Assembly: GCA_963736875.1 (NCBI GenBank) | Contig: CAVTQH010000004.1 | Location: forward strand, 253,899-311,559 | Direction of reading: 5' to 3' | Length of the DNA: 57,661 bases | Source: Candidatus Amesbacteria bacterium | GTDB taxonomy: Bacteria; Patescibacteriota; Microgenomatia; CAZETR01; Amesbacteraceae | In this document: positions 21,413 through 35,306 of the stretch, piece by piece | Position numbering within the stretch: the stretch's first letter is position 1 | How the letters are laid out: each line of letters begins with the position of its first letter | The notes under the pieces: model-generated | What the model saw: only the letters and a program-made list of their open reading frames with translations | The model's database searches: none | What the model was told of the DNA's origin: nothing | Translations under genes and position numbers: made by a program

Positions 21413-22490
21413 TCAATACATTCCGGTTTTATCTTTTGCCTTCTTAATAAATTTTCCGAACTTCCGGTCTTTAGCTCTTCTTTCCACCTCATTCATTTTG
21501 TAGAATTCAGTTTCTTTTTGTAATTTTTTGTAATTCAGATATTTATCTTTATCCATTGTCCCTGTCTCCACCGCTTCCAAAATCGCACAGTCAGGTTCGT
21601 TTGTATGAGTACAGTCTGAATATCTGCAATTCCGGGATAGTAAACCTACTTCATCAAACACATTTTCTATACCCGTATCCAAATCTCCCATACCCACCTC
21701 TCTTGTACCCGGATTATCAATAACTATCCCCCCGTTTTTCAAAAAATACATCTCTCTCACAGAAGTTGTATGTTTTCCTCTGCCCGTAGTTTCGCTTAAT
21801 CCCCGCTGTTTTAATGTCATTTTTCCCAAGTAATTTATTTATAAGCGTTGATTTTCCCACCCCGGAAGAACCCAAAAAACAATATGTCTTACCTTTGGAA
21901 ATATACTTTTCCAGTTCATCCAAACCCGTTTCCGTGACAGTACTTGTCAGAAGAATATAAACATCCCCGAACCTTTCTTTAATCCCGGTTATCTTGATGT
22001 CTAATTCAGCCTCGGAAATTAAATCAGTTTTATTAATAATTATCACCGGCTTAATTCCTCCGTCTTTGGCTAATACCAAATATCTCTCAAAACGATTCAA
22101 ACTGTAATCTCTATCCGGTGACCCCACAATAAATGCCGTGTCTATGTTAGTCGCTATTAGTTGATTTTCATCCTTATTACTGTACTTCTTTGAAAGTACC
22201 GTCTTTCTGGGTAACACTTGACGAATAACTGCTTTTCCTCCGGATAATTCGTTTATCACTACAAAGTCCCCCACCGCCGGATAATCTTCTCTTTTTACCG
22301 CCAAAAACTGCTGTTTACCGGTAATTTTGGCTAAATATTCTCCATCCACCCCTCTTACTTTGTACGCTTCCCGGTATTCAGCCACCACCCTGGCTATCTC
22401 ATGTCCGGTTAAATCTGACTTTCTTAGTCCTATCTTATAAAACCCGTCAAAACCTAAATCCTCCAGAGTGCTTGTTTGAGTTTCATTCAT
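21413..22490 (-). CDS. rsgA: Ribosome small-subunit GTPase RsgA, one-base frameshift near 21800
   Basis: PAVGDFV, QLIATNID, NKTD, GSSGVGKST. Removing one base gives ...SETTGRGKHTT..IDNPGTRE..CRYSDCTHTNEPDCAI. Confidence 0.9.
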
Positions 22491-22633: not shown

Positions 22634-22800
22634 TTACTTTCCGTAGTTATTTGCCCAGATGGTATAGTCCAGATCGTCCACTCTGTGGTCGTTGTTAAAA
22701 TCCCCCTGTCTTGGTCCGGTGGCATTGATTATTCCGTAGTTATTCGCCCAGATGGTATAGTCCAGATCATCTATTCTTCCGTCTCCGTTGGCATCGCCGG
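22634..22800 (-). repeat. Dockerin module copy 1 (others at ~25366-25530, ~27028-27195, ~35140-35306)
   Basis: Copies 1-3 share an identical 34-nt core GTTAAAATCCCCCTGTCTTGGTCCGGTGGCATTG; all four encode DDLDY(T/A)IWANNYG twice. Confidence 0.9.
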
Positions 22801-25324
22801 GTTTAAGCATTGGAGTTGGTGTTGGTATGGCTGTAACCGTGATAGACGGAGAGGAAGTGGGACCGGCTGAATAATCTCCGATTCTCACAGCCAAATCTGT
22901 AACCAAATTGTTAATACTTATAGGTAAATTTCCGGATGCATCGGAACTAATTGTTTGCGTAGAAGTTACTGTCCCGGTATGGGTATTCCACCACTCCGCT
23001 TTATACCCACTGTTAGGTGAAAACCCTGTGACTGTTACTGTTCCGGAAACTGCGGCCGGAGTTTGGTTGTTCCATTGATAATTAGAATTAGCAATCCACA
23101 GATGGGCTCTTTTATTTACCAAATCCTTCTGGCCCCAAGCCCGGACACCCCCGGACACATTAGCTACCGCATCCCGGTAATTTCCGTTTGACAGCGGAAT
23201 ACTACTGATAAAGTTGTAATATTTTCCAAATTCCGGCCGTAGATCCCGGCCTGAAGGGTAAATATGCTGGGTTGTATACCAATAACCGCTGTCAATTAAA
23301 CCTCCGGGGTTGACCTGGCCCCACAAAAGATTATGCAGCCAAACACCATTGGAATCAGCGGATATGTCACCCGTATAACCATCTGTATTATTATCAGAAT
23401 TAATTAAACCGGTTTCTCCGCGCATCACCGGCTTTCCTGTCCCGGCAATCATCTGATACAGGGGAACATCAGGAAGACCATTGCCGGGATGAGCGGTGTA
23501 TGAAGCAGAAGCTGTATCGTAGAAACCGCTGTTGGGATTATCCCGACTGATATAACGGTGAAAATCAGCATAGTCAAGATTGGAATAGCCGGGATTAGTC
23601 CAAAGAGCAGTCTGGGGAAAACCGGCCCACAGGGAGGTCGTAACCAGATGGTCATTCGGTTTAAACTGGTGCATATAAGCGCCAAAATTATTAGCCAAAG
23701 TATAGTGTAAATCACTTCCCGGATCGCCTTCATTCAGAAGTTCCCAGGAGTGAATATTTGTGGAATAACCCCAGCGGGCCTGCAGATAGCGCCACCATGC
23801 CCGCTGCAGCCAATAGACTTTTGTCATATCACCCCTGTAGCCATAAAAACAGTTATTCCCCGGACAGGAAGCGGTATCGTTATCCGGAATATTATTCCCG
23901 TCATAATCAATGTGGTTTAGGATATAATCATTTTTATCCATACCTACCACCTTTAAATAAATACCTTCCTGATGGGCTAAATCAACTACTTTATCAAAGG
24001 CATATGATTTTTCCTGCTGGAAATATTGATGATGTGCCATCAGGGCCTTAGGAATAATATTCGGTCCCAAACCCCCTCCGGGTAAAACCTCCTGGATTGT
24101 TAGTTCATCAATAAATACCTGATTGGAAGGATTCGGCCGGCTAACATTTTCCATTACCACATACAGCATTGGCAGAAAGTTGATATCACCCGTTGTCCAA
24201 TCACCTGTGATTGTATCCCAAGTTCCTCCGGAGCTTATTTTATCAGCTGCAATTCTAATTCCCGCAGTTGGTAACGTCGGATCATCAAGCCAGCCGCCAC
24301 CGGAGATCGTCCCTCCCAGTTTCATTGTAAAACCATATGTCCCGGTTACTCTCGGTCCCGTTAAGGTCCTCGGTGTAAAAAATCGGGTTGAAAATCTATA
24401 GGTGGTATTTGGTTTTACTGCAGGCGTCCTGTACATCCAACCAATTGATGAATAATCACCGTTTTGGCTGTATAACCTTTCCCAGTCACTGTCCAGTGAC
24501 AGTGAAAAATCATGACCGGGGTAGGCATAATCCGCAGCTAACATATCCCAGTCACTCCCCAACGAAGCATTCCGCCATGGATTGTCAAATGATCCAAAGA
24601 TCGACCATTGTGATAACCACATCCGGATTAGCTGAATACCATTATTACCCATTATCGTAAAATTATCCCTGTTTCCCTGTACCGGATCATTCCATGAAAT
24701 CTGATCGAAATTCATATTGTAGCCCAACCCGGGAAAGTATGTCCCGTCACTAAATTCAAAGTAACGGGAGTCTTTTTGTGATACCCTGACAAACCCCTTA
24801 CTGGTTCCGCTGGTAACTGTAAAGGACTGGTTGGTTGAAGTAGAACTTCCTCCGGCATCCTGAACTGTTAGCCTGTACATCCAGTTACCTGAAACATTTG
24901 GTGTAAATCTTACTTTCCACATAAAAGTATTTTTCGGATATATCCAATCCTGTCCATTTTTTACCTGATAATCGAAATCCTGATAATAAAAAGCCGGTTG
25001 GGTATAAACAGTTTGCCAATTATCGGAGGTAAATTGTGCATTAACGGTTATCCCCTGCCCGGACTGTATCCCTGCCGGAGTCTGTGTATCATACGGCCAC
25101 TGGTAATTGGTAGCGGTAACCCCGGTTAAACCAAAAGAGATTTCCAATTTCTCGTACCTAGGAATTTGGTTATTGGGGTAGTCTCCCCTGTTATCGCTGA
25201 TATTGCTAATTGCCGGGGCAGCTTGAATACGTGCCGGATAAAGGAAAGTGCCGACAGCTAATCCGGCAAAAATTATTATTACCGGATTACACAGGAATGA
25301 TTTCATGAGTATTACCTTTATCAT
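22634..25324 (-). CDS. Secreted glycoside-hydrolase-like protein (DUF5060-like N-terminus, clan GH-A-like barrel) with C-terminal dockerin
   Basis: Signal/TM segment, WKVRFTP, WELLNEG and MRGETG (candidate catalytic Glu pair), YKAEWWNT, PT linker, duplicated DxNxDxRxDDLDYTIWANNYG. Confidence 0.78.
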   Translation of the reverse strand: MIKVILMKSFLCNPVIIIFAGLAVGTFLYPARIQAAPAISNISDNRGDYPNNQIPRYEKLEISFGLTGVTATNYQWPYDTQTPAGIQSGQGITVNAQFTSDNWQTVYTQPAFYYQDFDYQVKNGQDWIYPKNTFMWKVRFTPNVSGNWMYRLTVQDAGGSSTSTNQSFTVTSGTSKGFVRVSQKDSRYFEFSDGTYFPGLGYNMNFDQISWNDPVQGNRDNFTIMGNNGIQLIRMWLSQWSIFGSFDNPWRNASLGSDWDMLAADYAYPGHDFSLSLDSDWERLYSQNGDYSSIGWMYRTPAVKPNTTYRFSTRFFTPRTLTGPRVTGTYGFTMKLGGTISGGGWLDDPTLPTAGIRIAADKISSGGTWDTITGDWTTGDINFLPMLYVVMENVSRPNPSNQVFIDELTIQEVLPGGGLGPNIIPKALMAHHQYFQQEKSYAFDKVVDLAHQEGIYLKVVGMDKNDYILNHIDYDGNNIPDNDTASCPGNNCFYGYRGDMTKVYWLQRAWWRYLQARWGYSTNIHSWELLNEGDPGSDLHYTLANNFGAYMHQFKPNDHLVTTSLWAGFPQTALWTNPGYSNLDYADFHRYISRDNPNSGFYDTASASYTAHPGNGLPDVPLYQMIAGTGKPVMRGETGLINSDNNTDGYTGDISADSNGVWLHNLLWGQVNPGGLIDSGYWYTTQHIYPSGRDLRPEFGKYYNFISSIPLSNGNYRDAVANVSGGVRAWGQKDLVNKRAHLWIANSNYQWNNQTPAAVSGTVTVTGFSPNSGYKAEWWNTHTGTVTSTQTISSDASGNLPISINNLVTDLAVRIGDYSAGPTSSPSITVTAIPTPTPMLKPGDANGDGRIDDLDYTIWANNYGIINATGPRQGDFNNDHRVDDLDYTIWANNYGK

Positions 25325-25365
25325 GGGTCATAATATTTTACGTGTCAACGGATAAGAGAGAGGGG

Positions 25366-26943
25366 TTACCTTCCGTAGTTGTTGGCCCAGATCGTGTAGT
25401 CCAGATCATCGACTCTGCGGTCGCCGTTAAAATCCCCCTGTCTTGGTCCGGTGGCATTGGTTATTCCGTAGTTATTCGCCCAGATGGTGTAGTCCAGATC
25501 ATCGACTCTTCCGTCCCCGTTTGTATCTCCGCGCATTGGGGTTTGTGTAGGAATACTTGTAGGAATAACACTGGGAATAGATGTCAGAACCAGAGTTGGT
25601 ATTGTTGTTGGAGCTACTGTGGGAGCAATAACAGTTACATTAAGGCAGGAATTAGGCCCGGTACAAGCATAAACCAAACCTCCGATGCCGCCAAAACCAG
25701 CCGGACGGCATTCAGCCACTCCATCGTTCCAGGCTCTGCAGCAGACCGAATATGTTCCAATAGCCGGAGGGGTCCATGATGTACTTATTACGGCATTTGG
25801 CGGTGTAATGTCCTGGTATGTAATGCGGTTAACGGTTCCGTTGAAATAATTTATTTCTCCGCTTAATGCACTACCCGGAGAATATACGCTTGCGCTGTAT
25901 GTGCCGGAACCGCCCATAATAAGATTAGTAGGGCCGGTAACATTACTGCAGTTGGGCTGAATCGGTGCTTGTGTTGGTATAGGAGTGGGAAATGAAAGTT
26001 GGTATCTGCGGACGCCAATGCTGGAATTAAATCCCCAAAAAGTAGGATAAGGACCTCCGGTGTTACCGGCATAATATACACGCATTTCATTATTCTGGAT
26101 ATAAGCATGAGGACTCCACATCAGTGATCCATCCCATCCGCTGCCGTTACTTTGAGCCAGCTTGACCTCCCCTGAGAAATTTATCCCGTCAGTTGATGTC
26201 GATAGGTACATTACGTAGGGAGCATCATTTACGTTGCCGGGATTATATGAATATACATAATAATATATGCCGTTGGTATATGTGACCCTTCCTGCCTGAA
26301 CCGAGCGGGTGTTGGGGAGATTAACAAATTCACCGAATCTGTGTCCGTCCGTACTTTCGCTTCGGTATAAACCGCCGCCTCCGGCGATATACAGAATATA
26401 TTTATTATTTAAAAATATCGGCGAGGGTGTTTCATAATAACCTGGTATGGAAGGAGTCTCAATTTCCCCTAATTTGGTCCAATTTACACCCGGAGAAGAT
26501 GCAGTTGCGTGCATAAGAAATAAAGTCATAAAGCTATTACGGTTAGCAGTGACATAATACATATGCCATATTCCGTTATTGTCTATTAAAACACCCGGAC
26601 TGCATGACAGATCATCTTTCGCGGTGCTGTCTGTTCCTTCCACTACTATCATGTCGTTGGACTGCGGAGTTGTCCATCCGGATAAACCATCCGTCCAGCT
26701 TTCACGCCTATAAACTTTGTCTCTCCAGAAATCGTTAATCGGTACACTTTTACAGTAATACATTAACCAGCTTCCCCAGCCTGGTTGATGCATAATATAA
26801 GGAGAATACTGGGAATTGTAAATTCCGATGGGACCGACAAGTTCCGATTTTGATATTTCGGTTATCTGGATTTGGGCATATACACGAGGGATTCCCAAGA
26901 AAATAAACGCAATAATGAATAATATACGAAATATTACTTTCAT
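25366..26943 (-). CDS. Secreted beta-propeller glycosidase-like protein with C-terminal dockerin
   Basis: Signal peptide, repeated blades (SPGV, ETPS, MWSPH; STDG repeats) resembling GH43/32/130 folds, PT linker, dockerin. Confidence 0.7.
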   Translation of the reverse strand: MKVIFRILFIIAFIFLGIPRVYAQIQITEISKSELVGPIGIYNSQYSPYIMHQPGWGSWLMYYCKSVPINDFWRDKVYRRESWTDGLSGWTTPQSNDMIVVEGTDSTAKDDLSCSPGVLIDNNGIWHMYYVTANRNSFMTLFLMHATASSPGVNWTKLGEIETPSIPGYYETPSPIFLNNKYILYIAGGGGLYRSESTDGHRFGEFVNLPNTRSVQAGRVTYTNGIYYYVYSYNPGNVNDAPYVMYLSTSTDGINFSGEVKLAQSNGSGWDGSLMWSPHAYIQNNEMRVYYAGNTGGPYPTFWGFNSSIGVRRYQLSFPTPIPTQAPIQPNCSNVTGPTNLIMGGSGTYSASVYSPGSALSGEINYFNGTVNRITYQDITPPNAVISTSWTPPAIGTYSVCCRAWNDGVAECRPAGFGGIGGLVYACTGPNSCLNVTVIAPTVAPTTIPTLVLTSIPSVIPTSIPTQTPMRGDTNGDGRVDDLDYTIWANNYGITNATGPRQGDFNGDRRVDDLDYTIWANNYGR

Positions 26944-27027
26944 ATATCTATTATAGTTTAAAACGATTGTGTTAAGTATTGATTATCTGGAGCAACTTGT
27001 CCGTTTTAAGCCACCTCTTTATTGAAT

Positions 27028-29866
27028 TTATTTACCATAATTGTTTGCCCAGATGGTGTAGTCCAGGTCATCTACTCTGTGATCATTGTTAAAATCCCCC
27101 TGTCTTGGTCCGGTGGCATTGGTTATTCCGTAATTATTCGCCCAGATGGTGTAGTCCAGGTCATCCACATGCCTGTCCCCGTTGGCATCTCCGGGTATGG
27201 AGGGTATTGGTGTCGGAGTCGGAGCGGGGGTAGTGGTAGTTGTAAGAGTAGGTTGAGGTGTCGGAGCAGGAGTTGATGATCCGTTTGATACAGCTTCGAT
27301 GGTTGTAACTAAATTATTGATATAAAAAAGATCCCCGATGGCTGTCGCCGGAACATCCAGGTATTTGGCCAGTTCTTCCCGCGAAGATTTTTGAATATAT
27401 GCTTTAGCGTTAAACATTGCCTCATAATCATATAAAGGCTGTATTGACCCCTCCGCATAAGTAGCACCAAAACGAGAGACAAACCAGTAAGGGGCTATCC
27501 AACTATATTCATTAATTGCTGCAGATGTTTTACCTGGCAGCGTTTTGGGATAGATAATCCCCCAGCTCGGGAATCATGAGCATAAAGTTGGAAGCAACGG
27601 ACATGACATGGGTATAATCATTGGCAGTATCGCCGGGATTACCGACATCTTTGGTAAAACCGGCAGCCCGGGCAGCCAGCTGATTGTTAAGCGTGGTTTG
27701 GGCCCAATTAGCTTCGGAAGTATTGCCCGCCATTCTGGCTAATTCCAGATAGCCTTTGGTACCGGCAATAGCGGCATTAAACTGGAAAGGGAAAGGAAAA
27801 GAAGCAGATGAACTGGGCCGGCCACCCAAAGCACTGAAAATCGTCTGTGCCTGGGATGGAAACACTTTCGCATACTGCCACATTCCGTAATCCCTGTAGT
27901 AGTTGTAGACCATCCCTGTATCCCGCGGTCCGAACGAACCCATCGCATTTAAAACATCCTGGGGAAGCTGAAATGGTTCTCTGGAAGTACCCGTATTCCA
28001 ACCGTTATGTTCATATTCAATCGGAGAATGGTTGGTGTATTCACTTTGGAGGTAGGTTCTTAATTTGGTCTGGGTCGCAACCGGGAGGTGAAAATATGCC
28101 CGACCCAAGACTGCCAATAATTCGGCGGTATTATGAAAATTATCCATAAAAGCTTCTCCAAAATTCCGGGGCATACCTCCGTCAGAATTACCGGAAATGC
28201 TATACGCCGGTTTCAGATGTCCGGCATTAATCATTTTATTGACCTCCCTGTCCAGACGGCTAATCAAATCGTTGACATTCACCCCCGGATTTGTGGGAGC
28301 GGTATTAACCGTGACGCGCGGGGTAACCAGACCCGTGCTACTGCCGGAACCAAAAGCTAAGACAGCGTTACTCCGGTGAAGATATAAATGACCCTGGTAG
28401 GGAACTATGGGATTATTGTCACCATGTCCCCCGTAGACTCCGTTAAAAGTCCCATAGAGCTTGTTGAGGCCGGATTCGGCTTGACCCCAATACATCTGGT
28501 CGTAATTCGGAGCCAGGGAGTCTAAATTATATGACCATAGATATCCCCCTCCGGTGCTGTCGACGGTAAACCAATCTGCATCCCTGTCACAGCAAAGTAC
28601 CTGATAGATCACTTTGCCGCCTGAAGAAATAGCCATGGGTTCGTCACTTGCATTCATACTTCCGGGATTACATAATCCGGTTCCGCACCTTGGAACCGTA
28701 ATTGTATTCGTACCGATAATCCAGCCGCTTGCACCACCCCTTGTCCCGAAAATCGCTCCCTTATCTGTCCAAAATGTATTGGTCTGATAGATAATATTAT
28801 CAATGCCGTTGACTAAGGGTGGATAGCGGGAACCTGCCCGGGTGCCGTACCAGGCTATGGGTGCGTAATACCCGTTACCGTAGATATATTCGGTACCGTT
28901 CGCGGCATTTAAAACGAAATAAGTACGGCGGTAGGGCATACTTTTAAGATAATCGGCAAGATTTGTCACATCCATTCTTAACCCGTTTCTGGGACCAATG
29001 TCTCCATTCGGTGAAGCGGATGTATAAAAAAAGTCTTCGGCATCAAGATTTTGGAGATCCCAATTTCCCGGTACAGATGGGCCGACCGTCCGATATGGTG
29101 TCGTGCCGACAAACACCACCTTATCCTGATAAACTACCGGCCACCAATTACGGAAACCCAAACCGGGCAGCAGATTAGATTTCCATACCAAAGCTCCGGA
29201 TACAGCGTTCAGCGCGTAACCATGGCCATCGTTGGAAGCAAAATACAGGGTTTGATTATTGGTCGATATAGCAGCCGAAAAAGGAATCGGCCCGTCAGTT
29301 TGATAACGCCATGCCAGTTGTCCTTTTTGAGCATGATCATTTGAGTAAATTGCATAAAAATACCCGTCTCTGTTCCCCAGATAAACCATATTATTAATCA
29401 CCAACGGGTTTGTGTCATAGCCGGCTCCGGCTCCGTCGTAAGACCACAGTTTATTCCCGTTTGTAATATCAAGGGCATACAACTTATGGTCAAACCCGCC
29501 CACATATGCTACCCCGTTATAGATGGTAGGTGAATTTCCCAGAGGCATATCAGTGGGAAAAATCCATTTGGTAGCGCCATTGCTTGGATTCAGAGCAATT
29601 AACCCTTTGGCTGTTGAGATAAACAGAGTGCTGTTGGCAGCTATTATCTGTATATATGGGGCTATATATGGGTCGATCTGCCTATACCATAATATCCCTC
29701 CGCCATGAACCTCTTCAGGAGTCCAGGAAGTCCGCTGCTGATTGGCCCCTGCCATCGGCCAAGTGTTTTCTGTTTGAGCCGAAACACTCCCGACCCAAAA
29801 ACACAACGTTATCCCGGTAATTAATATCCCTAATCCGCATGCAACTATTCCCTTCCTGTATCTCAT
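27028..29866 (-). CDS. PQQ/BamB-like beta-propeller protein with C-terminal dockerin, one-base frameshift near 27545 (~945 aa)
   Basis: WPMAGANQQRTS and LYALD..NG..LWSY repeats. The shifted frame LPGKTSAAINEYSWIAPYWF...EAMFNAKAY runs into ORF 27028-27417. AGGAGG SD upstream. Confidence 0.8.
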
Positions 29867-29954
29867 AACCGGATAACCTCCTTACTAAATATATCTCTTT
29901 CCGGCTCCCCCTGCAAAAAATCTGCAACTCGTATCTACAATAACACCAAAAAGG

Positions 29955-30266
29955 TTATTTTTTGTTACCTCTTTCCCATAAACTGAAAACCTCAACCAGT
30001 ATTAGGGTAAATACTGATATTACAGGCAGAAAAACAAGAGCGAAGACTTTACCCCAGGGTTCAATAAAATACAGAATAAACGCAATAAATAAATATGCAA
30101 TACCAACCATTAAAATGCTTGATTTAAATGTTGTTCGTTTCCCTTTTCCCTTTTTCACCGATTGAATTATTCCCAACACCACTGAAACAATGACAACGAA
30201 AACAAAAATAACAAAAATTAGAATTGCTCCCCAATAAAGTGTTGCCAAATCATCCATCCTTATCAA
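29955..30266 (-). CDS. Small 3-TM membrane protein
   Basis: 103-aa hydrophobic ORF. Confidence 0.6.
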   Translation of the reverse strand: MIRMDDLATLYWGAILIFVIFVFVVIVSVVLGIIQSVKKGKGKRTTFKSSILMVGIAYLFIAFILYFIEPWGKVFALVFLPVISVFTLILVEVFSLWERGNKK

Positions 30267-30293
30267 ATTCTAGCATATTCAGCCGTAAATCTG

Positions 30294-30779
30294 CTAAATT
30301 CTTGAGCGAAAGTATTGTTGTGCAAATCTCCTGTACATCTCTCCCGCATCATTCGGAATCTCGTATGTAATCACCAGCTTTTTGTCATAATTTTTGGGAT
30401 TAGGTGTCAATCTCGCTGATGAATCAACCGTGACAGCCCAGCAGGTCGTCAGATCCAACCTTTCAATCCCGTCTTTTTTTTGATTAAATCTGACCACCTG
30501 CTGACCTACAAACCCAAGCTTCCCGGGATTGATATCCAAACCTATTTCCTCTTGTGCAACTCTTTTTAATAATTCTTCCCACGAATTGTCAGTCATCAAC
30601 ACTCTTACCCCAAAAGTCGCCAGCATGCCTTTCATAGGCGGATTCAGCCGTCTGCCCCAAGCTATTCCTTGCCCCTTAACATCTACCAGTATATCTATAC
30701 ATGGCATGGGAAACAGCTTTAGGTGCTCAATAAATTGTTCATACGGTACCCAACCCGGCCTCTCCACCCCTTTCATCAT
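30294..30779 (-). CDS. Nudix-like hydrolase (degenerate box)
   Basis: PMPCIDILV..RRLNPPMKG..LKRVAQEEIGL resembles GDP-mannose mannosyl hydrolase-type Nudix proteins. Confidence 0.6.
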   Translation of the reverse strand: MMKGVERPGWVPYEQFIEHLKLFPMPCIDILVDVKGQGIAWGRRLNPPMKGMLATFGVRVLMTDNSWEELLKRVAQEEIGLDINPGKLGFVGQQVVRFNQKKDGIERLDLTTCWAVTVDSSARLTPNPKNYDKKLVITYEIPNDAGEMYRRFAQQYFRSRI

Positions 30780-30879
30780 AAGAGCATTATACCCAAACCC
30801 TCCAATTCAGGCTAAACCTGGTTCCAGTATAATCATCCGCCATCCCCTGTTTAAAAAAGGCCTATGTTATAGTTAATAA

Positions 30880-32280
30880 ATGGATCCGCAGGTTACTGTC
30901 CCGGAAACCCCGCCGCCGCAAAGCCCGACCCCTCCGGTCTCCTCAACTCCTCCTCCTTCCAAATCCCGTCTGCCGTTAATAATCATCCTGGGTTTATTGT
31001 TTTTTGCTGTTTCCGTATCAGGAGGAATTTTTTGGTGGAGCAGATCCCGCCCCCAACCCCCGTCTCCGGCTGATCAGGCACTGACTCCTTCTCCTTCACC
31101 TGAAATATTTCGCCTTCAGGCCGGCGTCCAATATCTCTCCGGAACTGCCTGGAAGCTTGTGGACGGCCGGAAAACCGAAATCAGGGAAAAGGATATTTTG
31201 TCTGAAAATGATGTGATATCAACCGATCCCCAATCCCGTCTGGTGCTGGCTTTGGATGACGGATCAATCGTCCGCCTGGATGAAAACACCACTCTGGCCT
31301 TAAGTGAACTGAAACCCGAAAAAATCAGCTTAAATAACCAAACGGGCACGGTCTTTGCCCGGGTTCAGAAAGACCCTCTGCATAAATTTCTGATCCTGGC
31401 CAAAAACATCACCGTGGAATCTTCCGGCACTGCTTTCCTGGTTGAAAATACGGACGAGGTCAAAGTCCTGGTCTATGAAAGTGCGGTCCGGATTTCTACT
31501 CCGAGCGGTCAACCGGCTGAAGTTAAAAACCAACAGCAATGGTCGGAGAGTCAGACCGCACCGAAAAAAATCGATACCAAGAAGCTGGCCAGCCGGGAAT
31601 TTGCCGAGTGGAGTCTGAAAGCAGAAAACGTCGCTCCCTCTCCCGTGGTTACCGAAACACCCGCCAAAAAATCTGAACCTGCAAGTGGTATAACTTTAAC
31701 CGGCAAGATTGCCGACAATGGCATCCTTTTGGAATGGAATATTTCGGGCATCGATACCCCCAACGGGGTTAAGGTAGTCAAATCGGATATTACCAATCCC
31801 GTTTATCCCGGAAGTGAGTTTGTATACCTGTCAGACCCCGCTGTCCGTTCATACACCTGGACTATTAAAGACGGCCGTCAGTGGCATTTCCGGGTCTGCC
31901 GGTATACCGGCAATGTCTGCGGGGTTTACTCAAATGATATCAAGGTTACTGCCCCTGCAGGCGGCAAAACCTCTGAGCCGGGTCAGGGCCAAGTCACCGG
32001 CATCAGCCTGACCGCTGTGAAAGGTGATTCCGGAAAAGCCGTACTTGAATGGTCCGTTACCGGTACTTCCTCTCTGGGTTTTAAGATTGTCTGGTCTGGA
32101 AATTCCGATCCCACTTACCCCACCCGGGAAGGTGACCAGTTCCATTATCTTTCAGACCCTTCCGTCCGCCGGGACGAAATTACCGGCCTGGAAACCGGTA
32201 AAACCTATTATTTCCGTGTCTGTGAATATTTGGGCGGAAGCTGCGGTACCTACTCCAATCAGGTTTCCCTCCCTCTGTAA
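30880..32280 (+). CDS. TM-anchored FecR-domain protein with two fibronectin-III-like repeats
   Basis: DVISTDPQSRLVLALDDGSIVRLDENT (FecR); two repeats LEW..G..K.V.S...P.YP...YLSDP.VR...FRVC.Y.G..CG.YSN. Confidence 0.78.
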   Translation: MDPQVTVPETPPPQSPTPPVSSTPPPSKSRLPLIIILGLLFFAVSVSGGIFWWSRSRPQPPSPADQALTPSPSPEIFRLQAGVQYLSGTAWKLVDGRKTEIREKDILSENDVISTDPQSRLVLALDDGSIVRLDENTTLALSELKPEKISLNNQTGTVFARVQKDPLHKFLILAKNITVESSGTAFLVENTDEVKVLVYESAVRISTPSGQPAEVKNQQQWSESQTAPKKIDTKKLASREFAEWSLKAENVAPSPVVTETPAKKSEPASGITLTGKIADNGILLEWNISGIDTPNGVKVVKSDITNPVYPGSEFVYLSDPAVRSYTWTIKDGRQWHFRVCRYTGNVCGVYSNDIKVTAPAGGKTSEPGQGQVTGISLTAVKGDSGKAVLEWSVTGTSSLGFKIVWSGNSDPTYPTREGDQFHYLSDPSVRRDEITGLETGKTYYFRVCEYLGGSCGTYSNQVSLPL

Positions 32281-32297
32281 GTTCAAATGACCTATTT

Positions 32298-32882
32298 TCA
32301 GTGATTGGCGGCGAGTAAAATCCGGTTAAAAAACACCATCCTTCTTCTGACATACTCCCTTATCGGGTGATTGTTCAGTTCAATCTTCAGATTTCTGTAT
32401 TCAATTAAATAATCGGGATTGTTTTTCAGCAAATTGAATAACAAAATCTGGTTGTTAAAATCCTTATCTTCGGGATTCGCCACATGCAATTCAGCCGGGG
32501 ATCCCTTGTATCTAAATTTCCATTCTCCAAACGTTTTCCCCCTCTTTACGGGTTTACCGAATACGGAGATTATTTTGGAGAAAGTTTCAGAAAGCAAAGC
32601 TGACGGCGTAACGGCGTACAAATCTATATCTCCCCGGCCTTCGATTTGCATCCCTATAGAGCCGATCAAATATAGATCCAGTTTCGGACACAACTTTTTT
32701 ATTTTCCTTATCAATTCCTGAGCCCGGATATTTGATTCGGGATCATAGGGGTAAATTTTCAGTGTTTCTTTTACGGAAAATCTGTAGGGATGTATCCACA
32801 ATAACACCAAACAGTATAAATATTTCCTGGGGTTTTTAAAAAACCGGGTGAATTCAGTTTTGATATTACTTGGCATACTCAA
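32298..32882 (-). CDS. GrpB/UPF0157-like nucleotidyltransferase-fold protein
   Basis: LIGSIGMQIEGRGDIDL and LKNNPDYLIEYRNLK patterns. Confidence 0.7.
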   Translation of the reverse strand: MSMPSNIKTEFTRFFKNPRKYLYCLVLLWIHPYRFSVKETLKIYPYDPESNIRAQELIRKIKKLCPKLDLYLIGSIGMQIEGRGDIDLYAVTPSALLSETFSKIISVFGKPVKRGKTFGEWKFRYKGSPAELHVANPEDKDFNNQILLFNLLKNNPDYLIEYRNLKIELNNHPIREYVRRRMVFFNRILLAANH

Positions 32883-32898
32883 CCTTTAAGTGCAGAAA

Positions 32899-32927
32899 AT
32901 TATAATATTATAGGTCGTTTTTGTCAA
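32899..32927 (-). promoter_or_regulatory. Consensus sigma70 promoter TTGACA-N17-TATAAT
   Basis: -35 at 32922-32927, -10 at 32899-32904; the spacer contains GACCTATA. Confidence 0.8.
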
Positions 32928-32970
32928 CCTGATTGACGTTTACATAGATCTATATATACTTACATTCAGA

Positions 32971-34701
32971 ATGTATTCCCGCCTCCACCGCGGCATGGCT
33001 CTGTTGCCCTTACTTCCGGTATTGGTTTTAGCTATCGGCCTTATTACCAGCGTTATTGTTACCCAAAGTCCCCAGCGGATATCTACCCGGGCTGCCAACG
33101 GTGATTTATGCCGGGCTAATGGTTTCAACTGCTACCCCAACTATTATTACTGTCAATATACCTATTCTCAGTTTAACGACTGCAATGCCGGTTATAAGTG
33201 CGGATACAACTGTGCCGCCCCGACTGCCACTCCCTACCCTACCCCGGTTCCCTGTTCCGGAGACTGTATTCCCAATGGTGAAGACTGTTATGATCCCGGA
33301 TCCGGCCATTGCCAACCGAATTTTATCTGTTGTGACCGGATTGACCCGCCTCCCGCACCTACCAGTACTCCCCGACCGCCAACGGCCACACCCACCCGCA
33401 CTCCCACCCCTACTCCTGCCTGTTCAGGTCTGTGCATTCCAAACGGTGAGTATTGCTATGACCCGGGTACCGGCTATTGTCAACCATATTTTATCTGTTG
33501 CGACCAGGCAGATCCTCCTCCGACACCCACCAGGACACCGACCCCCCGCCCGCCTACATCCACACCCACCCGCACCCCGACTCCTATAAGGACACCTACA
33601 CCCACTCCCATATGTTCCGGCATGTGTATCCCCAACGGTGAAAACTGTTATCAATTAGGTACCGGATACTGTCCGCCCTACCACATTTGCTGTAATCAAC
33701 CTGACCCCACCCCTTCTCCCATCCGTACCCCCACCCCCGCCCGCACCCCGACTCCTGCTCCGGTCCCTATTTGTGTCCCCGGCACCAGAAAATGTACCGA
33801 TCCTCCCGCCAATTCCTCCAACGGTCCGATGTTAGAAATATGCAATACCCAAGGTACCGGCTGGAATATTTCTTACTGCGATACCTCAAAAATCTGTACC
33901 TGGAACCGGACTTATTGCATCTCTCCCATCTACATCACCCCTACCCCGGAATGTGTAAATGGGACTACTACATGCATAGGCCAAAGGAAATTTGGATGTG
34001 TCGGTGGCGAATGGATGCCTTACGTAAATCCCGGTAATTGCATGAGTGCCACCCCCACACCCCCGCCACCGACCCCGACTCTCCCGCCCAGCCTTATTAA
34101 TTGTGTCATCCGTAACGGATGGGCATACTGCACCCAAAACAACCCTTTATGGGCAAATATCCGGCTTCCGTACTGTTACGATGATGACGGAAATTATATT
34201 CCTAACCCCTATTCCATCTCCCAGCGGGGTTGCGGCGAAGCTGTTACCTGTTCTCTCCTGTGCACATGTAAACGTACACCTCAATACTGCAACCTGGATC
34301 AATGTATCGCTTCAATTGACCGTTACCAGTCCCTTAGTTGCCGGGGTACCGGTGTAGACTTAAATGTACTTGTTCTGCAGGATTTTCCCGAATGCTTCAG
34401 TGCCACTTACACTGCTATCCCTGATGATATCCATGATCCTGAAATTCATTTGGTAAGCTGGGCTAAAATCGACGAGGCGCTGGCTTACGGACCGGTAGAA
34501 ATTCAGGGAATATTTGTGCGTAAAACTAATGATGTATCTTTCAGTCATAATTCACTCATTGTCGGCAGAGATGCTCATGGACGAATCTATAATGACCCTT
34601 ACTTCAACGCCCAGAATTCCAATCCTAATTACCAAATTACATCACCGTATCTGGAGGATTATTTTGACATTACTTTGGTCGGAGCCATTTCCGTCAAATA
34701 A
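32971..34701 (+). CDS. Secreted Cys-rich repeat protein with C-terminal C39-like peptidase domain
   Basis: TM segment, three CSGxCIPNGExCYxxGxGxCxPxxICC repeats separated by PT linkers; SQRGCGEA / SHNSLIVG / IYNDPY triad-like motifs. Confidence 0.72.
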   Translation: MYSRLHRGMALLPLLPVLVLAIGLITSVIVTQSPQRISTRAANGDLCRANGFNCYPNYYYCQYTYSQFNDCNAGYKCGYNCAAPTATPYPTPVPCSGDCIPNGEDCYDPGSGHCQPNFICCDRIDPPPAPTSTPRPPTATPTRTPTPTPACSGLCIPNGEYCYDPGTGYCQPYFICCDQADPPPTPTRTPTPRPPTSTPTRTPTPIRTPTPTPICSGMCIPNGENCYQLGTGYCPPYHICCNQPDPTPSPIRTPTPARTPTPAPVPICVPGTRKCTDPPANSSNGPMLEICNTQGTGWNISYCDTSKICTWNRTYCISPIYITPTPECVNGTTTCIGQRKFGCVGGEWMPYVNPGNCMSATPTPPPPTPTLPPSLINCVIRNGWAYCTQNNPLWANIRLPYCYDDDGNYIPNPYSISQRGCGEAVTCSLLCTCKRTPQYCNLDQCIASIDRYQSLSCRGTGVDLNVLVLQDFPECFSATYTAIPDDIHDPEIHLVSWAKIDEALAYGPVEIQGIFVRKTNDVSFSHNSLIVGRDAHGRIYNDPYFNAQNSNPNYQITSPYLEDYFDITLVGAISVK

Positions 34702-34703
34702 CC

Positions 34704-35306
34704 ATGCCTGAAAAAAACTTTTTCAAACAACTTTCTCTGCTGACTTTTACTCTCTTGCTTTTAATTTCCGCAATCGGATTAGCTTCCCGGATATCCCCGG
34801 AAAAAAGCCGCTTAAATCTTACAGGACGTGCTTTCACTGAACCTACAGATAATACCGGTTCCTACATAATACCCCACAGCCCCCAGCAACTTGTGATTGA
34901 ACACCAGTCATCTGCCCTGTTGCACGCAGTTCCGATATCCGGTAATAATTTCGTCATTTCTTTTGATTATTACCGCGACGTATTCCAAATCACTTTGTAT
35001 CCTCCTTTCGAAACATCTAAAGCAAATTTCTTTTCTTATCTGCAACAAAACGGCTATAGCCAACTACCGAAAGACATGTTTGAATATCTGGTCAACCCTA
35101 CCGTCCCTTCAACCCCTACCCCCATTCCGGTAGAAAAACCCGGGGATGCTAACGGGGACGGGAAAGTCGACGATCTGGACTATGCAATTTGGGCGAATAA
35201 CTACGGTATAACTAATACCACCGGGCTAATGCAGGGAGATTTCAACAATGATCACAGAGTCGATGACCTGGACTACACAATCTGGGCAAACAACTACGGA
35301 AAGTAA
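34704..35306 (+). CDS. Membrane-anchored protein with C-terminal dockerin
   Basis: N-terminal TM, PT linker, PGDANGDGKVDDLDYAIWANNYG...DFNNDHRVDDLDYTIWANNYGK. Confidence 0.82.
   Translation: MPEKNFFKQLSLLTFTLLLLISAIGLASRISPEKSRLNLTGRAFTEPTDNTGSYIIPHSPQQLVIEHQSSALLHAVPISGNNFVISFDYYRDVFQITLYPPFETSKANFFSYLQQNGYSQLPKDMFEYLVNPTVPSTPTPIPVEKPGDANGDGKVDDLDYAIWANNYGITNTTGLMQGDFNNDHRVDDLDYTIWANNYGK

What the first reader, a model, noticed from the sequence alone, without database searches (positions are those of the whole stretch)
22634..35306. Family of four secreted proteins with virtually identical dockerin tails: a candidate 'CPR-osome'
A GH-A-like enzyme, a propeller glycosidase-like protein, a ~945-aa PQQ-propeller protein and a small TM-anchored protein all end in a PT linker plus two Ca-binding repeats DxNxDxxxDDLDY(T/A)IWANNYG. 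Three share an identical 34-nt core, implying recent module shuffling or gene conversion. Identical helices in both halves and across proteins predict one common partner and dual-mode binding, as in cellulosomal dockerins. No cohesin is visible in the window. The inference is a modular surface complex for attacking or binding host glycans in an organism with minimal metabolism.
Basis: partly seen in the sequence, partly recalled or inferred. Interest (0 to 1): 0.7.

Follow-up and report, generated by a model that had tools for sequence, protein, structure and literature searches.

The report
Dockerin-tagged secreted enzymes of a CPR bacterium
Four secreted proteins of a probable ultra-small (CPR) bacterium end in the same calcium-binding "plug" (dockerin); the matching "socket" (cohesin) is absent from this window but lies beside related and orthologous genes in other genomes, so this looks like a simple surface-display kit, not a cellulosome.

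Summary
Four genes end in a Pro/Thr linker plus a 54-residue dockerin. The dockerins are 83-92% identical in protein and 83-89% in DNA. A 34-nt run is identical in the three tandem copies. Pfam, PDB profile hits and an AlphaFold model all say dockerin. One correction: the "~945-aa" PQQ-propeller gene is split by a frameshift at homopolymer runs, probably an assembly error.

- The window holds no cohesin.
- Two more proteins with this dockerin subtype lie on the same 311.6-kb contig.
- In a related metagenomic contig, three same-subtype dockerin genes flank a TM-module-PT stalk-LamG-CBM96 protein. Its N-terminal module folds as a cohesin (pLDDT 94; top 38 PDB hits are cohesins).
- In a contig syntenic with this window, an ortholog of the 896-aa enzyme and a PQQ-propeller homolog sit beside two cohesin genes and a third cohesin-like gene.

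The anchors carry one cohesin, and no cellulase is present. This is a one-enzyme-per-anchor display system, not a multi-enzyme "CPR-osome". Synonymous divergence is high (dS 0.4-1.6; dN/dS 0.04-0.13), so the copies are old and under purifying selection, not recently shuffled. Binding, substrates and the "host glycan" idea remain untested.

The parts
22634..25324 (-). 896-aa secreted protein. Order of parts: signal peptide, DUF5060-type beta-sandwich, clan GH-A-like (beta/alpha)8 domain with a long insertion, C-terminal beta-rich region, PT linker, dockerin (core 22637-22798).
   Evidence: PDB 9gmj 'DUF5060 domain-containing protein' matches at E 4e-18 in two stretches. WELLNEGD aligns with WEFWNEVD and MRGETGL with LVGEFGL. 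Pfam DUF5060 E 7.5e-4 on the N-terminal piece. Dockerin_1 E 1.3e-4. An ortholog in L021 is 33% identical over residues 54-895, E 2e-98.
25366..26943 (-). 525-aa secreted protein. Order of parts: signal peptide, beta-propeller-like domain (weak GH32N-like match), an unassigned region of about 135 aa, PT linker, dockerin (core 25369-25530).
   Evidence: Pfam Glyco_hydro_32N E 3e-5 to 1e-4, but only profile positions 15-89 of 307. Dockerin_1 E 2.3e-6. No PDB sequence hit for the cargo part.
27530..29866 (-). The 778-aa 5' part of the split gene: signal peptide, BamB/PQQ_2-type beta-propeller, unassigned C-terminal region.
   Evidence: Pfam PQQ_2 E 3e-22. The PQQ enzyme model is below its cut-off. 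PDB hits are propellers only. A homolog lies next to the GH ortholog in L021 (30% identity, E 3e-26).
27028..27528 (-). The 3' part of the same gene in another frame (167 open codons): end of the cargo, PT linker, dockerin (core 27031-27192). The frame change lies between about 27530 and 27575.
   Evidence: Frame translations. Dockerin_1 E 7e-5. G5, C3 and A4 homopolymers are at the junction. RsgA in the same window is broken in the same way.
34704..35306 (+). 200-aa protein. Order of parts: N-terminal hydrophobic helix (signal peptide or anchor), unassigned domain of about 110 aa, PT linker, dockerin (core 35142-35303).
   Evidence: Dockerin_1 E 6.5e-6. In the AF2 model the dockerin part has pLDDT 82-96, helix 3-29 is confident and residues 30-140 are not predicted. 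The top five Foldseek PDB hits are all dockerins; the best is 2y3n_B (TM 0.79, rmsd 1.5 A).
32971..34701 (+). 576-aa secreted Cys-rich, PT-rich protein just upstream of the 200-aa dockerin gene (stop and start 2 nt apart). It is probably co-expressed. It is not a cohesin.
   Evidence: ORF layout. No Pfam, NCBIfam, PHROG or PDB match. No match to the cohesin HMM.

Best explanation
The four genes encode Sec-exported cargo proteins of a non-cellulosomal cohesin-dockerin display system typical of this lineage (said by earlier notes to be Microgenomatia/CPR).

Anatomy. Each protein has a cargo domain, a flexible Pro/Thr linker and a 54-residue type-I-like dockerin. The dockerin has two canonical Ca2+ loops (D1, N3, D5, D9, D12) and two identical recognition helices.

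Mechanism. After export, the dockerin plugs, Ca2+-dependently, into the single cohesin of a membrane-anchored protein. That protein is built TM helix, cohesin, PT stalk, (LamG), CBM96. It is encoded elsewhere on the same contig, not in this window. The anchor supplies the membrane tether and a carbohydrate-binding module in trans, and the plugged-in protein supplies the activity. At least six cargo proteins in this genome share one dockerin subtype, so they compete for the same sockets. The symmetric helices would allow either of two 180-degree orientations.

Shown here by computation:
- dockerin sequence and fold;
- cohesin fold of the neighbouring module in a relative;
- recurrent gene linkage of the two module types;
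- synteny with a contig where orthologous cargo sits beside cohesin genes;
- purifying selection on the dockerin.

Inferred:
- actual binding and its Ca2+ dependence;
- surface location;
- the substrates (probably non-cellulosic glycans).

The split PQQ-propeller gene is most likely intact in the organism.
For: Dockerin identity:
- Pfam Dockerin_1 on all four tails.
- The A4 profile hits only dockerins among significant PDB sequences; 2y3n_B E 4.5e-4, 5nrk_B E 6.8e-4.
- In the AF2 model the dockerin region has pLDDT 82-96, and the top five fold hits are dockerins.

Same subtype elsewhere in the genome:
Their dockerins are 81-88% identical to the window's.

Cohesin partner class:
- L002 carries three dockerin proteins of this subtype (69-77% identical) around P0010.
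- P0010's module 36-190 gets a sub-threshold Pfam Cohesin match (E 1.2e-4).
- It has 330 representative relatives.
- Its AF2 model has pLDDT 94 and pTM 0.87.
- The top 38 Foldseek PDB hits are all cohesins; the best is CaCohA2 6kgf_C (E 9e-11, TM 0.74-0.80).

Architectures of the family: TM-Coh-PT-CBM96, two or three tandem Coh, and Coh+Dockerin.

Gene linkage:
- Of five loci found through the cohesin, L018 and L019 hold clear dockerin genes and L020 a weak, half-length match. L018 has Coh directly followed by a DUF5060...Doc gene.
- L021/L022 are syntenic with the window: MreB 63%, Def 45%, M50 45%, PBP2 39%, Wzy-TPR 36%, Fmt 33%. There an ortholog of the 896-aa protein with a DGFDYVIWLNNYG dockerin, and a PQQ-propeller homolog, lie beside P0142 (TM-Coh-PT-Doc), a 201-aa protein with Pfam Cohesin above its cut-off (26.8 against 24.1 bits), and a 231-aa cohesin-like protein judged by eye only.

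Own genome: the P0010 cohesin module shares 5 of 33 short words with a stretch of the same genome 32.7 kb before the window. An earlier agent described a TM-cohesin-stalk-CBM96 protein there.

Selection: dN/dS 0.04-0.13.
Against: - No cohesin is in the window, by the family HMM on all six frames, by Pfam on 37 ORFs (two scanned only at E 0.01 and ten only at 0.001), and by tblastn with three L021 cohesin-type proteins.
The cohesin in this genome therefore rests on word sharing and on unchecked earlier notes.
- Two of five cohesin-ascertained loci (L004, L017) show no dockerin within their flanks.
- No binding was modelled or measured.
- Many dockerins in nature have no known cohesin partner.
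- Cargo functions are weakly defined. The GH32N match is partial, the PQQ-like propeller has no catalytic assignment, and the 200-aa domain is unknown.
Confidence: 0.65

Rival explanations
1. The tails are orphan dockerins. They act as stand-alone Ca2+-binding or stabilising tags, or they bind something other than a cohesin (a cell-surface glycan or another protein). No cohesin-based assembly takes place in this organism.
For: The window has no cohesin. Dockerins outnumber known cohesins in many non-cellulosomal organisms (general knowledge of the family). Two cohesin-ascertained loci lack nearby dockerins. The presence of a cohesin in this genome was not verified directly.
Against: Same-subtype dockerin genes flank a high-confidence cohesin-fold protein in L002. 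Orthologous cargo lies beside cohesin genes in the syntenic L021. Cohesin and this dockerin type occur in one polypeptide (P0141). Word sharing places a like module on the same genome.
Confidence: 0.15
2. It is a true cellulosome-type multi-enzyme complex (the 'CPR-osome'). Many dockerin enzymes would assemble together on a multi-cohesin scaffoldin to degrade plant-type or host polysaccharide synergistically.
For: Ten of the 150 listed family members (the query P0010 included) carry two or three tandem cohesin modules, and some carry cohesin plus dockerin like adaptor scaffoldins. At least six dockerin proteins are in the genome. The literature calls similar gene content in Microgenomates 'cellulosome' (PMC9123182).
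Against: The anchors closest to this dockerin subtype (P0010, P0135, P0136, P0138) have one cohesin. No GH5, GH9 or GH48 cellulase or CBM3 scaffoldin was seen. Cargo is heterogeneous and includes non-glycosidases: a BamB-like propeller here and metallophosphatases in relatives.
Confidence: 0.08
3. The near-identity of the tails is a recent event or an artefact: fresh duplication, whole-module gene conversion, or repeat collapse in assembly. On this view it does not reflect a conserved functional interface.
For: The 34-nt identical core, and a central tract of about 60 nt with only 2 variable columns among the three tandem copies (P about 0.0025). The assembly shows indel errors.
Against: dS between copies is 0.43-1.6 while dN is 0.05-0.09. 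The fourth copy and P0003/P0004 keep the same protein motif. So do relatives at 69-77% identity.
Confidence: 0.05

Closest known systems
Minimal cohesin-dockerin pair ClcC/ClcD of Cellulosilyticum lentocellum (PMC13487519)
   Same: A highly reduced system. A single-cohesin protein and dockerin-bearing enzyme(s) form small complexes, not a giant scaffold, and the genes are neighbours in relatives.
   Different: Here several (at least six) cargo proteins share one dockerin subtype. The anchor is membrane-tethered by an N-terminal TM helix with a PT stalk and LamG/CBM96. The cargo is not cellulase. Nothing has been tested biochemically.
Type I dockerins and cohesins of clostridial cellulosomes (e.g. 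C. acetobutylicum CaDoc0917-CaCohA2, PDB 6kgc-6kgf; R. cellulolyticum dual binding mode, PDB 2vn5/2vn6)
   Same: Two Ca2+-loop/helix repeats with internal symmetry. The partner module has the cohesin jelly-roll fold and is 25% identical to CaCohA2.
   Different: There is no multi-cohesin CBM3 scaffoldin, no SLH or sortase anchoring and no cellulases. The helix motif DDLDYxIWANNYG is distinctive. The Pfam Cohesin score is sub-threshold for the main partner family.
Non-cellulosomal cohesin-dockerin pairs (C. perfringens NagH/NagJ, PDB 2ozn; Archaeoglobus fulgidus cohesin, PDB 2xdh)
   Same: Cohesin-dockerin is used outside cellulose degradation to join glycan-active proteins. These entries are among the structural hits.
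   Different: In C. perfringens the modules link secreted toxins and glycosidases to each other, not to a membrane-anchored CBM protein.
Cohesin/dockerin gene content reported in Microgenomates (Cand. Shapirobacterales, Cand. Roizmanbacterium; PMC9123182)
   Same: The same supergroup, if the earlier lineage assignment is right. Cohesin and dockerin domains with glycoside hydrolases are reported and called a cellulosome.
   Different: That report is domain annotation only. I found no description of the TM-Coh-PT-CBM96 anchor, of the shared symmetric dockerin subtype, or of the cargo set.

Membership tests
Dockerin (type I-like, Pfam PF00404) | Two tandem segments of about 22 residues, each a Ca2+-binding loop (D-x-[DN]-x-D-x-x-x-D-x-x-D) followed by a helix | tested here: met
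   All eight half-sites fit, e.g. DANGDGRIDDLD and DFNNDHRVDDLD.
Dockerin (type I-like, Pfam PF00404) | Significant profile match | tested here: met
   Scores of 28.1, 26.7 and 23.4 bits are above the 22.9 cut-off, and one (22.6) is just below it. The A4 profile hits PDB dockerins at E 4.5e-4 and 6.8e-4.
Dockerin (type I-like, Pfam PF00404) | Dockerin fold | tested here: met
   AF2 pLDDT 82-96 over residues 145-200. The top five Foldseek PDB hits are dockerins; 2y3n_B has TM 0.79 and rmsd 1.5 A.
Dockerin (type I-like, Pfam PF00404) | Ca2+-dependent binding to a cohesin | not testable with these tools
   No multimer prediction or experiment was available.
Cohesin-dockerin system | Cohesin encoded in the window | tested here: not met
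   The A3-family HMM on all six-frame ORFs of at least 60 aa scored 2 bits or less. Pfam gave no Cohesin hit on 37 ORFs; thresholds ranged from E 0.1 down to 0.001, so weak matches would be missed in twelve of them. tblastn with the L021 cohesin-type proteins was negative.
Cohesin-dockerin system | Cohesin encoded elsewhere in the same genome | tested here: inconclusive
The P0010 cohesin module shares 5 of 33 words with a stretch 32.7 kb before the window. Earlier notes e1-753737 and e1-1587228 report cohesins.
Cohesin-dockerin system | Cohesin-fold protein genetically linked to this dockerin subtype or to orthologous cargo in relatives | tested here: met
   L002; L018 and L019, with a weak half-length match in L020; the syntenic L021/L022, with Pfam Cohesin at 26.8 bits against a 24.1 cut-off.
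Cellulosome sensu stricto | Multi-cohesin primary scaffoldin | tested here: inconclusive
   The closest anchors have one cohesin. Ten of the 150 listed family members (the query included) have two or three. The own genome was not searchable.
Cellulosome sensu stricto | Dockerin-borne cellulases (GH5, GH9, GH48 and the like) | tested here: not met
   No such family matched any cargo in the window or in relatives.
Clan GH-A glycoside hydrolase (896-aa protein) | (beta/alpha)8 domain with an N-E acid/base motif and a nucleophile Glu | tested here: met
   The alignment to PDB 9gmj conserves WELLNE and GETG against WEFWNE and GEFG. The role of these motifs follows from general knowledge of clan GH-A. 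Neither the activity of 9gmj nor that of this protein is known to me.
GH32 / five-bladed propeller glycosidase (525-aa protein) | Full-length family match and catalytic motifs (WMNDPNG, RDP, EC) | tested here: inconclusive
   The GH32N score is just above its cut-off but covers only 75 of 307 profile positions. The motifs were not evident by eye. No structural model was made.
PQQ-dependent dehydrogenase (split 778+167-codon gene) | Match to the quinoprotein enzyme models | tested here: not met
   PF01011 scores 22.4 against a 26.7 cut-off, and TIGR03075 scores 32 against 480. Only the BamB/PQQ_2 repeat propeller matches.

The most novel reading that the evidence does not exclude
Microgenomatia-type CPR bacteria would possess a lineage-wide, general-purpose surface 'socket'. 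It is a membrane-anchored single cohesin on a PT stalk tipped with LamG/CBM96. A dedicated, internally symmetric dockerin subtype (DDLDYxIWxNxYG) plugs into it, carrying a swappable secretome. The cargo goes well beyond glycosidases: BamB-like propellers, metallophosphatases, Spherulin4/GH135-like enzymes, a probable esterase and small unknown domains. The GH-propeller-cohesin neighbourhood would be ancestral, as seen in the syntenic L021. The system would be the main way these wall-poor episymbionts arm their surface against a host or matrix glycan.
Probability: 0.35. Interest if true: 0.65.

Novelty: new variant of a known kind. Interest (0 to 1): 0.45.

Why it matters
CPR bacteria have tiny genomes and are thought to live on other cells, yet little is known about how they hold enzymes and adhesins on their surface. 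Suppose one dockerin subtype tags six or more secreted proteins in a genome of this size, and single-cohesin, CBM-bearing membrane anchors receive them. That would be an economical way to give many activities a shared tether and a shared targeting module. It would be directly testable with recombinant modules. It would also supply a new orthogonal cohesin-dockerin pair for protein engineering. The find is tempered by earlier literature that already notes cohesin and dockerin domains in Microgenomates, and by other follow-ups of this scan that describe the anchor itself.

Tried and rejected
- The look-up of encoding contigs does not serve the window's contig.
- The genome-contig scan with the four-dockerin alignment used patterns that were too specific. 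It returned one distant Planctomycetota locus.
- The metagenome-contig scan with the 12-dockerin alignment gave only distant dockerins (37-49% identical) on short contigs, plus one 18-residue fragment.
- The search for homologous proteins with the P0010 cohesin region found only the query itself, because the search is word-based. With the LamG/CBM96 region it was swamped by LamG proteins and did not show the own-genome homolog.
- No sequencing run could be listed for the locus, so the frameshift could not be checked against reads.
- The listing of cluster members gave no organism names for cohesin-family members. The CPR/Microgenomatia assignment therefore rests on earlier notes and on the style of the gene content.
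- PHROGs and NCBIfam gave nothing for the cargo beyond BamB-like repeats.
- I found no literature on PDB 9gmj or DUF5060 function.
- The promoter and terminator scan did not differ from shuffled sequence.
- The AF2 model did not resolve the N-terminal domain of the 200-aa protein.
- I considered and rejected a programmed frameshift in the PQQ gene. RsgA and other genes of this assembly are broken in the same way at homopolymers.


Full report
**1. The observation**

The region holds three tandem minus-strand genes: 22634-25324 (896 aa), 25366-26943 (525 aa) and 27028-29866. A plus-strand gene lies at 34704-35306 (200 aa). A six-frame scan for the Ca-loop pattern and for WANNYG finds exactly four modules in the 57.6-kb window, all at the C-termini of these genes.

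The DNA repeats are 166-169 nt long and 83-89% identical. Similarity starts at the PGD codons and stops at the stop codon. The 54-residue cores are 83-92% identical. The run CAATGCCACCGGACCAAGACAGGGGGATTTTAAC is identical in the three tandem copies.

All four proteins have hydrophobic N-termini and Pro/Thr linkers.

One correction is needed. The '~945-aa' propeller protein is not one ORF here. A 778-aa ORF ends at 27530, and the dockerin-bearing frame is open from 27528 down to 27028. The frames change within a stretch that holds G5, C3 and A4 runs. RsgA (21413-22490) is broken in the same way, and earlier notes report further indel-broken genes in this assembly. I therefore read the split as a probable assembly error. 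No read data could be found to check this.

**2. Are the tails dockerins?**

- Pfam Dockerin_1 matches all four (E 2e-6 to 1e-4). Three are above the gathering score and one is 0.3 bit below it.
- Every half-site has the canonical D1, N3, D5, D9, D12 loop followed by a helix.
- A profile of 12 such modules hits only dockerins among significant PDB sequences.
- An AF2 model of the 200-aa protein has pLDDT 82-96 over the dockerin. Its top five PDB fold matches are dockerins; 2y3n_B has TM 0.79 and rmsd 1.5 A.
- The two halves share 16-19 of 22 residues. From D9 to G21 they are identical in three proteins and differ by one residue (T/A) in the 200-aa protein. This is the kind of symmetry that underlies dual binding in clostridial type I dockerins (PDB 2vn5/2vn6, among the hits).

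**3. The cargo**

The 896-aa protein matches PDB 9gmj ('DUF5060 domain-containing protein', E 4e-18). The match covers the N-terminal beta-sandwich and a barrel domain. WELLNE and GETG align with WEFWNE and GEFG, and the sandwich also gets a sub-threshold Pfam DUF5060 match (E 7.5e-4). By general knowledge of clan GH-A, these are the acid/base and nucleophile motifs. 'GH-A-like' is therefore reasonable, but I could find no activity for 9gmj.

The 525-aa protein gets a GH32N match just over the threshold. It covers only 75 of 307 profile positions. I would call it a propeller-like domain of unproven activity.

The split gene has a BamB/PQQ_2-type propeller. It does not match the quinoprotein enzyme models.

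The 200-aa protein's domain is unknown. Its gene starts 2 nt after a 576-aa Cys-rich, PT-rich secreted protein that has no family match.

**4. Is there a partner?**

None is in the window, on three tests:
- the HMM of the relevant cohesin family on all six frames;
- Pfam on 37 ORFs;
- tblastn with three L021 cohesin-type proteins.

A region-restricted search with the dockerin returned two more proteins. They sit on a contig of the same length (311,559 nt) as the window's own proteins. The search also returned 69-77% identical dockerins on varied cargo from one metagenomic sample.

One contig of that sample, L002, carries three such dockerin genes around P0010. P0010 is a 670-aa protein with an N-terminal TM helix, a 155-aa module, a long PT stalk, LamG_3 and CBM96. 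The evidence on the 155-aa module is as follows:
- It has a sub-threshold Pfam Cohesin match (E 1.2e-4).
- It has 330 representative relatives in 1.84 billion proteins.
- With 38 of them it gives an AF2 model of pLDDT 94.
- The top 38 PDB fold matches of that model are all cohesins. The best is CaCohA2 (E 9e-11, TM 0.74-0.80, 25% identity).

Family members come in three architectures: TM-Coh-PT-CBM96, two or three tandem cohesins, and cohesin plus dockerin.

**5. Gene linkage and synteny**

Of five loci found through the cohesin alone, two hold clear dockerin genes (L018 and L019) and a third (L020) only a weak, half-length match. In L018 a cohesin gene is followed directly by a DUF5060...dockerin gene.

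The most telling case is L021/L022. These contigs are syntenic with the left part of the window:

| Protein | Identity to the window's copy |
|---|---|
| MreB | 63% |
| Def | 45% |
| M50 | 45% |
| PBP2 | 39% |
| Wzy-TPR | 36% |
| Fmt | 33% |

There, an ortholog of the 896-aa enzyme (33% identity over residues 54-895, E 2e-98) ends in a DGFDYVIWLNNYG dockerin. It and a PQQ-propeller homolog (30% identity) lie directly beside three genes:
- P0142 (TM-Coh-PT-Doc);
- a 201-aa TM protein with Pfam Cohesin above its cut-off (26.8 against 24.1 bits);
- a 231-aa cohesin-like protein with a C-terminal anchor. Its cohesin likeness is by eye only: neither Pfam nor the A3 HMM matched it.

For the window's own genome the evidence is indirect. 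The P0010 cohesin module shares 5 of 33 short words with a stretch 32.7 kb before the window. Earlier agents described a TM-cohesin-stalk-CBM96 protein there, next to P0003/P0004.

**6. Evolution of the tails**

Nei-Gojobori estimates between the four copies give dS 0.43-1.6, dN 0.05-0.09 and dN/dS 0.04-0.13. The modules are therefore old, and the protein sequence is held by strong purifying selection. This fits one conserved interface and speaks against recent shuffling.

Within the three tandem copies, the central ~60 nt have 2 variable columns, against 30 in the flanking ~100 nt. The 34-nt identical run is unlikely by chance (P about 0.0025). This suggests short-tract conversion or a constraint at the nucleotide level.

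**7. Reading**

The best explanation is a non-cellulosomal display system with one enzyme per anchor. The dockerin-tagged cargo plugs into a membrane-anchored single cohesin, whose stalk carries LamG/CBM96. It is not a cellulosome: no multi-cohesin scaffoldin is seen near this subtype, there are no cellulases, and the cargo is heterogeneous.

The closest described analogue is the minimal ClcC/ClcD pair (PMC13487519). Cohesin and dockerin domains in Microgenomates have already been noted (PMC9123182). A dockerin protein is also listed among essential envelope proteins of a Saccharibacterium (PMC10633639). A RefSeq-wide cellulosome survey does not cover CPR (PMC11557425).

I therefore rate this a new variant of a known kind, of moderate interest. 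Binding, Ca2+ dependence, surface location, substrates and the 'host glycan' idea all remain inferences.

Noticed in passing
window 21413-22490 (-): The RsgA GTPase gene is split into two overlapping ORFs (257 aa and 138 aa) by a frame change near A5, A4 and G4 runs. This is the same kind of break as in the PQQ-propeller gene and suggests homopolymer indel errors in the assembly.
   Followed up: partly
window 32971-34701 (+): A 576-aa secreted protein has repeated Cys-rich mini-domains on PT linkers and an unassigned C-terminal domain. Its stop lies 2 nt before the start of the 200-aa dockerin gene. It has no family or PDB match.
   Followed up: partly
window 42413-46427 (+): Four tandem genes for secreted or anchored proteins have no Pfam match. 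Two end in ...DYADT.TI.AAG.F, and two have C-terminal TM anchors. This looks like a small pilus or WxL-type surface module.
   Followed up: no
window 38076-41588 (-): A 1170-aa secreted G/T/N-rich fibre-like protein has no family match. It is not a cohesin by the family HMM.
   Followed up: partly
window 32899-32960: Divergent promoter-like sites lie between the GrpB-like gene and the Cys-rich gene. One is a perfect TTGACA-17-TATAAT on the minus strand (32927-32899).
   Followed up: no
L021 4864-7067 (also L022): Three cohesin-type genes lie in a row in a contig syntenic with the window: TM-Coh-PT-Doc, TM-Coh (Pfam-significant), and SP-Coh-like-Ser-rich-TM (cohesin-like by eye only). The dockerin on the first (ILDYAVFFEFFGK) is of a different subtype from the one on the neighbouring GH. 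This hints at a two-level (adaptor) arrangement.
   Followed up: partly
P0006 (444 aa, metagenomic relative): Here the same dockerin subtype sits at the N-terminus, directly after the signal peptide and ahead of an alginate-lyase-like domain. In all other cases seen it is C-terminal.
   Followed up: no
L019 6986-8296 (-) and L020 1437-2708 (+): Single half-dockerin-like segments (one Ca loop plus a DYxIW helix) occur in a CBM96 protein and in a beta-helix protein, each next to cohesin genes. They may be truncated dockerins.
   Followed up: no
window 22637-27192, central ~60 nt of each dockerin: Synonymous sites are nearly invariant in the helix-1/linker part of the three tandem copies but saturated in the flanks. 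Either short-tract gene conversion or a nucleotide-level constraint could explain this.
   Followed up: partly
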